A stretch of 49,911 bases of DNA from a phage: sequence record PZ445414.1. One strand, written 5' to 3'. A program made the position numbers and the translations under genes. Numbering within the stretch: the stretch's first letter is position 1; each line of letters starts with the position of its first letter. Below, piece after piece: positions 4,811 to 7,103 of this stretch. The notes under the pieces are model-generated. The model worked only from the letters and a program-made list of their open reading frames with translations. It was not told the DNA's origin and searched no databases.

Positions 4811-5296
4811 ATGGCAATTCAAGCAACTTATCAAGCTACAATGTCACGCGCACTGCCTGGCCAGGTGTCCGACACCTCAGCTTATAACATTGACGGCGCT
4901 TGCGTGCTCGACGGCACTGACGGGCAGGTAAGTGTGGATCATATCCTGGTTGGTGTTGCGGTACAGCATAACGGCGTTGACTCAATGGGTAACAAAAAAG
5001 TCAAGCCTATGGCATCTGGTGGTAAGGCTTATGGCGTAGCAATCCGCTCACACTTCCAGACTACTTCCGTAGATGGTCGCATGGTTTATGAAGTTGGCGG
5101 CGGAATCAACGTAATGACTAAAGGCCGCGTGTGGATGGTTGCAGCAGGGGAAGTAAACGCCTCATTTGGTGATCAGATCAATCTTGATGATAATGGTCAG
5201 GTTGCATCTGCTGGCGAAGTAACCACTAACTGGATCGCAACTGGCGACAATACCAAGTTTGGCGATATCTTCTTGGTTGAGGTTCAGGTTCAGTAA
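4811..5296 (+). CDS. capsid decoration-like structural protein (paralog A)
   Basis: 161 aa; SD AAGGAG; shares motifs (GVAV..., KGRVW/RGRVW, FGD) with next ORF; followed by intrinsic terminator. Confidence 0.4.
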   Translation: MAIQATYQATMSRALPGQVSDTSAYNIDGACVLDGTDGQVSVDHILVGVAVQHNGVDSMGNKKVKPMASGGKAYGVAIRSHFQTTSVDGRMVYEVGGGINVMTKGRVWMVAAGEVNASFGDQINLDDNGQVASAGEVTTNWIATGDNTKFGDIFLVEVQVQ

Positions 5297-5301
5297 TATA
5301 C

Positions 5302-5328
5302 AGGCGCTCAATGAGCGCCTTTTTTATT
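5302..5328 (+). terminator. intrinsic terminator
   Basis: aggcgctc aatg agcgcct tttttatt. Confidence 0.7.
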
Positions 5329-5338
5329 GGAGGTGAAA

Positions 5339-5836
5339 ATGAGCGATTATTCATCACTGATTGGCGTGCCGTCTCCTGGATGCCTTGTTGACTCGACAAC
5401 TCATACAATAAACGGCACTGGCGTTTGCTATGACGATTATATTTTGCCTGGGGTTGTTGTAAGAATTGCCGACATGGTGGACGGATACAACATGATCGGA
5501 GTTTCTGGTGGAAAGGTTGCCGGAGTTGCTGTAAAGCCTTTTATTTGCGGAGAAGTATACGAGCAAGGAGATCCGGTTAGCGTCATATCTCGCGGAAGGG
5601 TTTGGTGTTTAACATCGTTGGATGAAGCGCCAAACTTTGGCGATCCCGTTCAGGTTGATGTGAGCGGGTTTGTTTGCAGCGATGGGATAGAGGCCGTTCC
5701 AGGATGGAAGTTTTCGGGTGAATTTGAGAGGATCGATTATGATGTTTATATTGCTGGCGTGATTCTTGATTCAGTGATCGTAAACATCCACAAAGTTAAA
5801 AGCGCTGAGATTGTCGCACCATTCGATGAAAGCTAG
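5339..5836 (+). CDS. capsid decoration-like structural protein (paralog B)
   Basis: ATG 5339 after GGAGGTG; paralogous to 4811..5296; ends with TAG that is followed in frame by an Ig-like coding segment. Confidence 0.4.
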   Translation: MSDYSSLIGVPSPGCLVDSTTHTINGTGVCYDDYILPGVVVRIADMVDGYNMIGVSGGKVAGVAVKPFICGEVYEQGDPVSVISRGRVWCLTSLDEAPNFGDPVQVDVSGFVCSDGIEAVPGWKFSGEFERIDYDVYIAGVILDSVIVNIHKVKSAEIVAPFDES

Positions 5837-6058
5837 CCACAACCAAACAACAAGCCATTTACGCTTAAGGTTAATGTCTATCCAGACTACGCAACTGATA
5901 AGACTGGAGTTTGGACTTGCTACAGTGAAGATCTGGCAGAAGTTGATCAGAATGGAAATGTTTTCCCGAAAGGCATTGGCGGCCTTTGCTTTGTTGACTG
6001 GACGGCGAACGATGGAGGAGGGGCTACAGATACCTGTGTGATTACATTTGCCGACTAA
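5837..6058 (+). CDS. in-frame Ig-like (Big_2-like) domain segment downstream of TAG; possible readthrough extension of 5339..5836
   Basis: 73 sense codons in the same frame as upstream gene, no in-frame ATG/GTG with SD; peptide PQPNNKPFTLKVNVYPDYATDKTGVWTCYSEDLAEVDQNGNVFPKGIGGLCFVDWTANDGGGATDTCVITFAD resembles bacterial Ig-like group 2 domains. Confidence 0.35.
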   Translation, partial: PQPNNKPFTLKVNVYPDYATDKTGVWTCYSEDLAEVDQNGNVFPKGIGGLCFVDWTANDGGGATDTCVITFAD

Positions 6059-6077
6059 CATAAAAACCTATTGCACG

Positions 6078-6096
6078 TTTAACAAAAAGTGCTATC
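6078..6096 (-). promoter_or_regulatory. conserved box, inverted orientation, in leader of major capsid gene
   Basis: fwd tttaacaaaaagtgctat = reverse complement of ATAGCACTTTTTGTTAAA. Confidence 0.45.
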
Positions 6097-6140
6097 ATTG
6101 AGGCTGTTAATTGCTAACAGCCTTTAAAGGAGAAAGAAAC

Positions 6141-7103
6141 ATGACTAAAAAGTATGACGAATTTGACGCTAGCGTAGTTACCGCTCACCTGCAAATGCAG
6201 GGCGTTAAGGCTGACGCTTCCGACATGGGTATCTGGACTGCGCAGGAGCTTCACAAGATCCGCTCCTCTGCATACGAAAAAGAATACCCTGTAGGCTCCG
6301 CACTGCGTGTGTTCCCTGTCACCAACGAACTGAGCGACACGGATAAGACTTTCGAATACCAGACTTTCGATAAAGTTGGCTACGCGAAAATCATCGCAGA
6401 CTACACAGACGACCTGCCAACCGTTGACGCGCTGATGTCTACTGAGTTTGGTAAAGTGTTCCGCCTGGGTAACGCGTTCCTGATCTCCATTGACGAAATC
6501 AAAGCGGGTCAGCGTACTGGTAAGAGCCTGAGCGCTCGCAAGGCAAACGCCGCGCAGAATGCTCACGATCAGCTTGTTAACTTCCTGGTGTTCAAGGGTT
6601 CCAAGCCGCACAAAATTCTGAGCGTGTTTGATCACCCTAACCTCACCAAGATTGTTGCGGCTAAACAGTGGTACGACTCAAGCACCAAGACGAAAGAGCC
6701 AGAGCAAGCTTTCGACGATCTGACTGCGGCAATCGAAGCGCTGGAAACTCAGACCAACGGGCAGCATCGCGCTACTCACATTCTGATCCCGCCAAGCGTG
6801 CGCAAAGTCCTAACGGTTCGCATGGAAAACACCACTGAGAGCTACCTGGAATATTTCCAGAAGCAGAACGGCGGTATCACCATTGAAGCAATCGCAGAGC
6901 TTGAAGATATCGATGGCTCAGGCGGCAAGGGCGTACTGGTATACGAAAAAGATCCGATGAATATGTCAATCGAGATCCCGGAAGCATTCAATATGCTGCC
7001 AGCGCAGCCTAAAGACCTGCATTTCAAAGTGCCTTGCACCTCTAAATGCACTGGCCTGACAATCTATCGCCCATTAACTCTTGTGTTAATCACTGGCGTG
7101 TAA
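6141..7103 (+). CDS. major capsid protein (putative)
   Basis: 320 aa; strong SD AAAGGAG; flanked by terminators; size and position consistent with major head subunit. Confidence 0.6.
   Translation: MTKKYDEFDASVVTAHLQMQGVKADASDMGIWTAQELHKIRSSAYEKEYPVGSALRVFPVTNELSDTDKTFEYQTFDKVGYAKIIADYTDDLPTVDALMSTEFGKVFRLGNAFLISIDEIKAGQRTGKSLSARKANAAQNAHDQLVNFLVFKGSKPHKILSVFDHPNLTKIVAAKQWYDSSTKTKEPEQAFDDLTAAIEALETQTNGQHRATHILIPPSVRKVLTVRMENTTESYLEYFQKQNGGITIEAIAELEDIDGSGGKGVLVYEKDPMNMSIEIPEAFNMLPAQPKDLHFKVPCTSKCTGLTIYRPLTLVLITGV

What the first reader, a model, noticed from the sequence alone, without database searches (positions are those of the whole stretch)
5834..6058. Ig-like domain encoded in frame immediately after the TAG stop of a capsid-decoration-like gene
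Seen in sequence: gene 5339..5836 ends ...APFDES-TAG (5834-5836). The same reading frame then stays open for 73 codons to TAA 6056-6058, encoding PQPNNKPFTLKVNVYPDYATDKTGVWTCYSEDLAEVDQNGNVFPKGIGGLCFVDWTANDGGGATDTCVITFAD. There is no in-frame ATG/GTG with a Shine-Dalgarno that could start this segment independently. The peptide has a Pro-rich linker followed by a pattern typical of bacterial Ig-like group 2 domains (T..K..V.W.s.d..vA.Vd.nG.v...G...dgg....c.vtV). Established knowledge: Ig-like domains commonly decorate phage virion proteins and are frequently appended by programmed recoding. Inference: a fraction of this decoration-like protein may be C-terminally extended by amber readthrough (or in a suppressor host), displaying an Ig-like domain on the capsid; alternatively this is a recent nonsense mutation.
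Basis: partly seen in the sequence, partly recalled or inferred. Interest (0 to 1): 0.8.

Follow-up and report, generated by a model that had tools for sequence, protein, structure and literature searches.

The report
Nonsense-truncated capsid cement protein, Ig domain orphaned
In phage IsaakIselin a single G-to-T change has put a stop codon between the capsid-binding part and the Ig-like "antenna" of a known T1-type capsid cement protein, so this is an ordinary isolate-specific truncation and not a programmed read-through device.

Summary
The gene at 5339..5836 ends in TAG, and the same frame stays open for 73 codons to TAA 6056-6058. That segment encodes a genuine Big_2/Ig-like domain.

The window is Escherichia phage IsaakIselin (Bas10, Drexlerviridae). 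The gene is the orthologue of T1 gp48, a cement protein with an N-terminal beta-tulip domain and a flexible C-terminal Ig-like protrusion. T1 gp48 has been solved in the T1 and FCWL1 capsids.

The evidence points to a private nonsense mutation:
- Every close relative found encodes one uninterrupted 239-aa protein. These are phage AS5 and four metagenomic protein clusters at 79-94% identity, including 13 of the 15 members of the 90% cluster.
- Codon 166 in those relatives is GAG or GAA (Glu). IsaakIselin's TAG is one G->T step from GAG.
- 181 phage records carry the fused architecture.
- The TAG is present in two independent assemblies, so it is not a sequencing error.
- No suppressor tRNA, no conserved stop and no downstream RNA structure support programmed read-through.

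The 165-aa product keeps the whole capsid-binding domain. Same-genus phages naturally carry 153-aa Ig-less versions of this gene. Three other isolates carry different disruptions of the same Ig segment, so the domain appears dispensable.

GenBank's bas10_0008 (window 5826..6041) is a spurious out-of-frame call.

The parts
4811..5296 (+). First cement-protein paralogue (161 aa), orthologue of T1 gp49. GenBank bas10_0006 'capsid decoration protein'.
   Evidence: Pfam Phage_cement E 9.6e-27. Annotation. The PDB sequence hit 9kmg_a, 'cement protein II', belongs to this paralogue class. T1 paper PMC11945409.
5302..5328 (+). Intrinsic-terminator-like hairpin plus T-run between the two cement-protein genes.
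   Evidence: 8-bp stem with 6 GC pairs, followed by TTTTTTATT. The T1 and Chapo records annotate a terminator at the equivalent place (rows H113 and H110).
5339..5836 (+). Truncated orthologue of T1 gp48 (165 aa, 17.5 kDa). It contains the complete beta-tulip cement domain and ends at the premature TAG.
   Evidence: PDB 9kzj_H (T1 gp48) at E 8e-25. Foldseek matches of the AF2 model to FCWL1 and T1 cement chains. Molecular weight.
5834..5836 (+). Premature amber codon at codon 166. Relatives have GAG (5 of 7) or GAA (2 of 7), encoding Glu. The change is a single G->T at 5834.
   Evidence: The TAG is also present in the independent assemblies SRR28231188 and SRR28231189.
5837..6058 (+). Orphaned coding segment in the same frame as the upstream gene: a Pro-rich linker plus a Big_2 Ig-like domain (73 codons), ending at the ancestral TAA stop.
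   Evidence: Big_2 hit and PHROG Ig families. 93-100% amino-acid identity to residues 167-239 of the four closest 239-aa relatives. pN/pS 0-0.10. The AF2 model shows a beta-sandwich at residues 177-237, and Foldseek matches Big_2 structures.
5826..6041 (+). GenBank CDS bas10_0008 (71 aa 'hypothetical protein'). This is a spurious out-of-frame ORF call that fills the gap left by the nonsense mutation.
   Evidence: Annotation. No Pfam hit and only an E 0.17 PHROG hit. This frame contains stop codons in two close relatives.
6141..7103 (+). Major capsid protein gene, the downstream neighbour. It fixes the synteny protease - gp49-like - gp48-like - MCP.
   Evidence: Annotation. Pfam Major_capside on the equivalent gene in related contigs.

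Best explanation
Window 5339..6058 is one ancestral gene, the orthologue of phage T1 gp48. That protein is a capsid cement protein whose N-terminal beta-tulip domain sits in heterotrimers with the gp49-type paralogue on quasi-threefold sites of the T=7 head. Its C-terminal Big_2 Ig-like domain protrudes on a flexible linker. In IsaakIselin a single G->T transversion changed codon 166 from GAG (Glu) to TAG, in the linker just after the cement domain.

Shown by the data: the mutation is private to this isolate, it is real, and the downstream segment is still intact. Inferred: translation terminates at the TAG, giving a 165-aa (17.5 kDa) protein that still cements the capsid but no longer displays the Ig domain. 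Any extended 25.5 kDa product would come only from background near-cognate read-through. At about 60 gp48 sites per head, that would yield less than about one Ig domain per virion. The Ig module is dispensable for plaque growth on laboratory E. coli K-12.
For: (1) The nearest phage, AS5 (about 98% mean column identity over the gene region aligned), has GAA at the TAG position and one 239-aa ORF.
(2) Four further protein clusters at 79-94% identity are all 239 aa. In the 90% cluster, 13 of 15 members are 239 aa. The two exceptions are IsaakIselin at 165 aa and a 99-aa member on a 1.7-kb contig.
(3) Codon 166 is GAG in 5 and GAA in 2 relative sequences. T at gene position 496 is private to IsaakIselin.
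(4) 181 phage records match at least 80% of the fused protein in one piece.
(5) The downstream segment is under strong purifying selection in relatives: 31.5 synonymous against 2.5 non-synonymous differences versus P0004, and pN/pS 0-0.10 overall. IsaakIselin has no private change there, so the stop is young.
(6) Sequence match to the solved T1 gp48 (9kzj_H, E 8e-25, query residues 10-233) and to FCWL1 gp29. The T1 paper describes gp48 residues 2-153 as the beta-tulip and 154-255 as a flexible protrusion, with 60 heterotrimers of 1 gp48 and 2 gp49.
(7) The AF2 model of the 94%-identical P0001 (mean pLDDT 84.9) has two domains. Residue 166 lies in the linker between strands 155-159 and 177-181. 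Foldseek matches the N-terminal domain to the T1 and FCWL1 cement chains and the C-terminal domain to Big_2 structures.
(8) Same-genus phages Henu7 and JohannLBurckhardt naturally encode 153-aa Ig-less versions that end 19 residues before the TAG position. A truncated form is therefore a viable architecture.
(9) Three other isolates carry independent, different lesions in the Ig segment: ityhuna (TGAA duplication), JLBYU19 (+1 G) and vB_SsoS_008 (4-nt gap).
(10) The TAG is identical in two independent read-set assemblies.
(11) The window holds no tRNA gene, and TAG ends about 15 other long ORFs in the window.
Against: No protein data are available, so a low level of read-through product in virions cannot be excluded. 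The stop falls neatly at the domain boundary and the downstream frame is perfectly preserved. That is what a functional read-through site would also look like, although it is equally expected for a young mutation filtered by selection on the N-terminal domain. The base after the stop is C, and I could not quantify the effect of that context on termination. Whether the truncated protein still assembles into heterotrimers is inferred from homologues and was not shown for this phage.
Confidence: 0.87

Rival explanations
1. Programmed or functionally exploited amber read-through, in the manner of the Qbeta A1 protein. Under this reading a set fraction of ribosomes read through the TAG, so a minority of cement subunits display the Ig domain, or the domain is displayed only in suppressor-carrying natural hosts.
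For: The downstream frame is intact and in frame 0. The stop lies in the linker exactly between the two domains. The extension has no independent start. The Ig domain is strongly conserved in relatives.
Against: The stop is not conserved in any of 7 close-relative sequences, in 13 other members of the 90% cluster, or in 181 fused phage records. Conservation of the downstream frame is fully explained by the uninterrupted gene in relatives. The 100 nt around and after the stop show no unusual RNA structure (z -0.51). No tRNA is encoded. TAG is used as an ordinary terminator for many other ORFs in this genome. The phage was isolated on MG1655, which by general knowledge is sup0.
Confidence: 0.05
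2. The truncation is not neutral. Under this reading, loss of the capsid Ig domain is selected during isolation or propagation on rough (O-antigen-less) E. coli K-12, which would explain recurrent independent knock-outs in laboratory isolates.
For: Four independent lesions, all confined to the linker/Ig segment and none in the cement domain: IsaakIselin, ityhuna, JLBYU19 and vB_SsoS_008. The first three were isolated on K-12 MG1655 derivatives. [quoted passage not shown] Laboratory T1 is described as 'fiberless' and laboratory-adapted, which is an analogous loss of an accessory adhesin.
Against: Many phages isolated on the same K-12 hosts keep the intact long form, for example orkinos, tunzivis and JLBYU16. 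Roughly half of the listed records come from K-12 hosts, so 3 of 3 on K-12 is not significant. Only a few passages separated sewage from sequencing. The pattern fits simple dispensability plus drift equally well. No complete survey of all records was possible.
Confidence: 0.2
3. Sequencing or assembly error in the GenBank record, with the real phage having an intact 239-codon gene.
For: Only one deposited genome carries the stop. The gene model around it is odd, because annotators called an overlapping out-of-frame ORF.
Against: Two independent Logan assemblies of other read sets, SRR28231188 and SRR28231189 (49.9-kb contigs), have the identical TAG. One of them differs from the window at another site, so they are not copies of the record. 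The change is a substitution, not a homopolymer indel.
Confidence: 0.02

Closest known systems
Phage T1 cement protein gp48 (PDB 9KZJ chain H, 'BIG2 domain-containing protein') and FCWL1 decoration protein gp29 (PDB 9KMH)
   Same: Same gene position: protease - gp49-like - gp48-like - MCP. Same two-domain architecture of a beta-tulip cement domain, a PQPNN linker and a Big_2 domain with the ATDKTGxW and WTAND motifs. Sequence E 8e-25 over residues 10-233, and Foldseek E about 1e-8 to 1e-10.
   Different: Only about 33% identical. In IsaakIselin the two domains are separated by a TAG, so only the cement domain should be made.
Uninterrupted 239-aa orthologues: Enterobacter phage vB_EclS_AS5 WZK93049.1 and the metagenomic clusters P0001-P0004
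   Same: 79-97% amino-acid identity, the same length to the same TAA, and the same neighbouring genes.
   Different: They have Glu (GAG/GAA) where IsaakIselin has TAG.
Natural Ig-less short forms of the same gene: Henu7 gp49 (QEA09703.1) and JohannLBurckhardt bas11_0007, both 153 aa
   Same: Same genus, same locus, the same cement domain, and no Ig domain in the product.
   Different: Their genes genuinely end there, with no residual Ig-coding DNA, and they are only about 35% identical. IsaakIselin reaches the same protein architecture by a nonsense mutation and still carries the Ig-coding DNA.
Ig-like domains appended to phage structural proteins by programmed frameshifting (Fraser et al. 2006) and the Qbeta A1 read-through protein. 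Both are cited from my own knowledge.
   Same: A C-terminal accessory domain on a virion protein lying beyond the normal termination point of a shorter product.
   Different: Here the interruption is not conserved, lacks any recoding signal, and is absent from all relatives. It behaves as a mutation, not a recoding site.
Laboratory loss of accessory adhesins: the lambda PaPa stf frameshift (own knowledge) and the 'laboratory-adapted fiberless' T1 (PMC11945409)
   Same: A non-essential surface-exposed host- or glycan-contact module inactivated by a point lesion in a cultured isolate while the remnant DNA persists.
   Different: Those cases affect tail fibres, whereas this one affects a capsid Ig domain. 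Selection for the loss is not demonstrated here.

Membership tests
Phage_cement (PF22758) / T1 gp48-type capsid cement protein | Profile match above the curated threshold | tested here: met
   PF22758 at 54.3 bits and PF23982 at 62.3 bits, against a cut-off of 27. phrog_1989 at E 1.9e-30.
Phage_cement (PF22758) / T1 gp48-type capsid cement protein | Beta-tulip fold matching solved cement proteins | tested here: met
   AF2 model of the 94%-identical P0001 (pLDDT 84.9). Foldseek matches 9kmg_b at E 3.9e-10, 9kzj_H at 6.9e-9 with TMt 0.74, and Pam3 8hdt_G at 3.3e-5. This was tested on the homologue, not on the window protein itself.
Phage_cement (PF22758) / T1 gp48-type capsid cement protein | Synteny: second of two paralogues between the prohead protease and the MCP | tested here: met
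   T1 gene order.
Phage_cement (PF22758) / T1 gp48-type capsid cement protein | Incorporated in the virion as a 1:2 heterotrimer with the paralogue | not testable with these tools
   Known for T1 only. Testing it here needs cryo-EM or MS of Bas10.
Big_2 bacterial Ig-like domain (PF02368) | Profile match at or above the gathering score | tested here: met
   23.7 bits against 22.8, E 4.6e-5. The match is marginal and partial (profile 21-56 of 79). Precomputed PF02368 hits on homologues P0007-P0017.
Big_2 bacterial Ig-like domain (PF02368) | Ig-like beta-sandwich fold | tested here: met
   The model has seven strands between residues 177 and 237, with pLDDT 85-93. Foldseek matches Big_2-CBM56 7quz at E 1.5e-4, intimin 2zqk/3ncx, and the Ig domain of T5 pb6.
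Programmed stop-codon read-through | Stop codon conserved among relatives that also conserve the extension | tested here: not met
   0 of 7 relative sequences, 0 of 13 other full-length cluster members and 0 of 181 fused phage records have the stop.
Programmed stop-codon read-through | Stimulatory 3' context or RNA structure | tested here: inconclusive
   No significant structure in 5825-5924 (MFE -16.9 kcal/mol, z -0.51). The effect of the 'TAG C' tetranucleotide context was not quantified.
Programmed stop-codon read-through | Extended protein detectable alongside the short one | not testable with these tools
   Needs virion proteomics.
Programmed ribosomal frameshift appending an Ig domain | Extension lies in a different frame, reached via a slippery site | tested here: not met
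   The Ig domain is in frame 0 with the upstream gene. The ORF in the other frame (bas10_0008) is unconserved and has stops in relatives.

The most novel reading that the evidence does not exclude
The capsid Ig-like domain of T1-type cement proteins is counter-selected, or at least repeatedly lost, when Drexlerviridae are isolated on rough O-antigen-less E. coli K-12. IsaakIselin's amber allele would be one of at least four independent knock-outs. On this reading its residual background read-through could leave a tiny tunable fraction of Ig-bearing virions. That would make Bas10 paired with its TAG->GAG revertant a ready-made isogenic system for testing what capsid Ig domains do.
Probability: 0.12. 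Interest if true: 0.45.

Novelty: already known. Interest (0 to 1): 0.15.

Why it matters
The main value is for annotation and for users of the BASEL collection.

- **Annotation.** bas10_0007 is a truncated T1 gp48-type cement protein, not a plain 'hypothetical protein'. bas10_0008 is a spurious ORF and should be replaced by a note that the Ig-domain coding segment has been orphaned by an amber codon.
- **Bas10 virions.** They probably lack the roughly 60 capsid Ig protrusions that close relatives carry. This could matter for experiments on adsorption, mucus or glycan adherence, or capsid display.
- **Family pattern.** Natural short forms and four independent lesions in the Ig segment show that the domain is an optional accessory module in Drexlerviridae.

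The finding gives no evidence for a new recoding mechanism.

Tried and rejected
- **Exact-pattern scan of IMG/VR** for the 47-nt junction with the codon wild-carded: no hit.
- **Peptide-pattern scan of IMG/VR** with the family alignment: only 18 loci, mostly isolate genomes. This was too few to estimate a natural baseline rate of disruption, although it did reveal the vB_SsoS_008 lesion.
- **RNA fold of the 100 nt around and after the TAG:** nothing unusual.
- **tRNA scan for a phage suppressor:** none found.
- **Literature searches:** 'Drexlerviridae + cryo-EM + decoration protein' found nothing, and the primary FCWL1 paper is not in the library.
- **The GenBank frame for bas10_0008 as a real gene:** rejected, because it has no family hits and contains stops in relatives.
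- **Private-change counts to date the mutation:** IsaakIselin has 8 private changes upstream and 0 downstream. Five of the upstream ones cluster at gene positions 27-57, probably a recombination patch, so the contrast is not informative.
- **Complete survey of all 365 matching phage records for disruptions:** not possible, because only 60 rows are listed per search. Two listings were inspected, the best-ranked and an evenly spread sample.

Full report
**Identity of the window.** A megablast of 5300-6150 gives a 100% match to Escherichia phage IsaakIselin (Bas10, MZ501077.1; Drexlerviridae, Tempevirinae, Henuseptimavirus), a 49,911-bp BASEL-collection phage. Over the region matched, window coordinates equal record coordinates minus 533.

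**Check of the observation.**
- ATG 5339, preceded by GGAGGTG, opens a 165-codon ORF that ends ...APFDES-TAG at 5834-5836.
- The same frame stays open for 73 more codons (PQPNNKPFTLKV...VITFAD) to TAA 6056-6058.
- The extension holds no in-frame ATG or TTG, and its only GTG is at codon 68.
- An open run of this length is only mildly unusual by chance, at about 4-5%. The real support is homology.
- The 73-aa peptide passes the Pfam Big_2 gathering score narrowly (23.7 against 22.8 bits, E 4.6e-5). It also hits PHROG families of Ig-domain structural proteins.
- The upstream 165 aa hit Phage_cement PF22758 and XM1_gp53 PF23982, as does the preceding gene 4811..5296. The two genes are therefore paralogues.

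**What the gene is.** The conceptual fusion of 165 aa, one residue and 73 aa matches solved structures by sequence.
- T1 capsid chain 9kzj_H, a 255-aa 'BIG2 domain-containing protein', matches at E 8e-25 over query residues 10-233.
- FCWL1 'decoration protein gp29' (9kmh) also matches.
- The 158-aa 'cement protein II' (9kmg_a) matches the N-terminal domain only.

The T1 structure paper (PMC11945409) describes the T1 head as follows.
- It carries 80 homotrimers of gp49 and 60 heterotrimers of one gp48 and two gp49.
- gp48 residues 2-153 form a beta-tulip domain.
- gp48 residues 154-255 form a weakly resolved outward protrusion, which the authors modelled as an Ig-like domain and proposed to aid adsorption.

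An AlphaFold2 model of P0001, a 94%-identical relative, has mean pLDDT 84.9 and two domains. A low-confidence hinge lies at residues 146-149 and a seven-strand C-terminal sandwich spans 177-237. Foldseek places the N-terminal domain on the FCWL1 and T1 cement chains (E 4e-10 to 2e-8). It places the C-terminal domain on Big_2 structures: 7quz, intimin and the Ig domain of T5 pb6. Window 4811..5296 is thus the gp49 orthologue and 5339..6058 is the gp48 orthologue.

**The stop is private to this isolate.**
- The closest phage, Enterobacter phage vB_EclS_AS5, annotates a single 239-aa CDS over the same interval. At the TAG position it has GAA.
- A search of 5.8 billion proteins found four more clusters at 94, 86, 83 and 79% identity, all exactly 239 aa.
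- In the 90% cluster, 13 of 15 members are 239 aa. One is a 99-aa member on a 1.7-kb contig, and only IsaakIselin is 165 aa.
- I retrieved the DNA of six of these contigs. Counting AS5, codon 166 is GAG in five and GAA in two of the seven relative sequences. The T at gene position 496 is private to IsaakIselin. One G->T transversion from GAG explains the stop.
- More widely, 181 phage records match at least 80% of the fused protein in one contiguous piece, as ORFs of roughly 250-265 aa. The fused architecture is therefore the norm for this gene type.

**The downstream frame.**
- Against relatives, the 73-codon segment shows 4, 8, 5, 14 and 31.5 synonymous differences and 0, 0, 0, 5 and 2.5 non-synonymous differences. 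That gives pN/pS of 0-0.10, which is tighter than the N-terminal domain at 0.14-0.30.
- IsaakIselin has no private substitution in the segment, so the nonsense mutation is young.
- The frame that GenBank annotated as bas10_0008 (window 5826..6041) has no family hit and contains stop codons in two relatives. It is a gene-caller artefact.

**Not a sequencing error.** Two independent assemblies of other read sets, SRR28231188 and SRR28231189 (49.9-kb contigs), carry the identical TAG. One of them differs from the window at another position.

**Evidence against programmed read-through.**
- No relative conserves the stop.
- The window encodes no tRNA.
- TAG terminates about 15 other long ORFs in the window.
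- The 100 nt around and after the stop fold no better than shuffles (z -0.51).
- The phage was isolated by direct plating and at least three single-plaque passages on E. coli K-12 MG1655 deltaRM. By general knowledge that strain carries no amber suppressor.
- T1 has about 60 gp48 positions per head. My own rough estimate of background UAG read-through is 1% or less, which would give fewer than one Ig domain per virion.

**Why the truncated protein should still work (inferred).**
- The TAG lies in the linker, 19 residues after the end of the cement domain.
- Same-genus phages Henu7 and JohannLBurckhardt, and Hanrivervirus herni, naturally encode short Ig-less versions that end at the position equivalent to IsaakIselin residue 146.
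- About half of the 365 matching phage records match only the N-terminal 60% of the query.
- The Ig module is therefore optional in Drexlerviridae. The locus is also mosaic: the flanks of IsaakIselin are 96-98% identical to Henu7-type phages, while this gene is only about 35% identical.

**Other lesions in the same segment.** Three other isolates carry independent and different disruptions, each absent from a near-identical or closely related comparator.

| Isolate | Lesion | Comparator without it |
|---|---|---|
| ityhuna | TGAA tandem duplication creating a TGA inside the Ig domain | orkinos |
| JLBYU19 | One extra G in the linker | JLBYU16 |
| vB_SsoS_008 | 4-nt gap just before the WTAND motif | ISF002, T1 |

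The sites and mechanisms all differ, which argues for dispensability rather than a recoding signal. Whether these losses are selected on rough laboratory hosts is open. The numbers are too small to decide, and many K-12 isolates keep the intact gene.

**Verdict.** This is a truncated allele of a structurally characterised protein family together with a GenBank mis-annotation, so interest is low. The most novel reading that remains is recurrent, possibly selected, loss of capsid Ig domains in laboratory isolates. It is weakly supported and would need wet-lab tests.

Noticed in passing
window 5826-6041 (+): GenBank CDS bas10_0008 (71 aa) is in a different frame from the conserved Ig-domain frame. 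It has no family hits and contains stops in two close relatives, so it is a spurious ORF call caused by the nonsense mutation.
   Followed up: yes
window 5302-5328 (+): A strong intrinsic-terminator-like hairpin (AGGCGCTCAATGAGCGCCT followed by TTTTTTATT) sits between the two cement-protein paralogues. The T1 and Chapo records annotate a terminator at the same place. Partial termination there would fit the 360:60 gp49:gp48 copy ratio reported for the T1 head.
   Followed up: partly
window 6056-6150 (+): The 95 nt upstream of and into the MCP start are 96-98% identical in phages whose adjacent gp48-like gene is only about 35% identical. The region contains TTGCAC (6071-6076), a 16-nt spacer and TGCTATCAT (6090-6098, extended -10-like), followed by a 9-bp hairpin at 6101-6123. 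Warwickviruses have GGCCGTTA...TAACGGCC at the hairpin, a compensatory T-A to C-G pair change. This is possibly a late promoter plus a 5'-UTR stabiliser or processing site for the MCP mRNA.
   Followed up: no
L003 1195-2068 (ityhuna); L004 1195-2068 (JLBYU19); L037 2300-2580 (vB_SsoS_008): Three other Drexlerviridae isolates carry independent frame-disrupting lesions confined to the linker/Ig segment of the orthologous gene: a TGAA duplication, a +1 G and a 4-nt gap. The first two are absent from near-identical sister phages, and the gap in vB_SsoS_008 is absent from related ISF002 and T1.
   Followed up: partly
L018 1201-1662 (Henu7); L020 1042-1503 (JohannLBurckhardt); L019 1246-1635 (herni): Same-genus and sister-genus phages have naturally short (about 130-153 aa) Ig-less versions of the second cement paralogue. 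The IsaakIselin/AS5 version is a mosaic replacement of this gene within otherwise 96-98% identical flanks.
   Followed up: partly
window 5365-5395 (gene positions 27-57 of 5339..5836): Five of the eight nucleotides private to IsaakIselin in this gene cluster within 31 nt near the 5' end. This suggests a small recombination patch rather than point mutations.
   Followed up: no
whole window against MZ501077.1: The window has the same length as the GenBank record (49,911 bp), but window coordinates are offset by -533 over the region examined. The window therefore appears to be a circular permutation of the deposited record.
   Followed up: no
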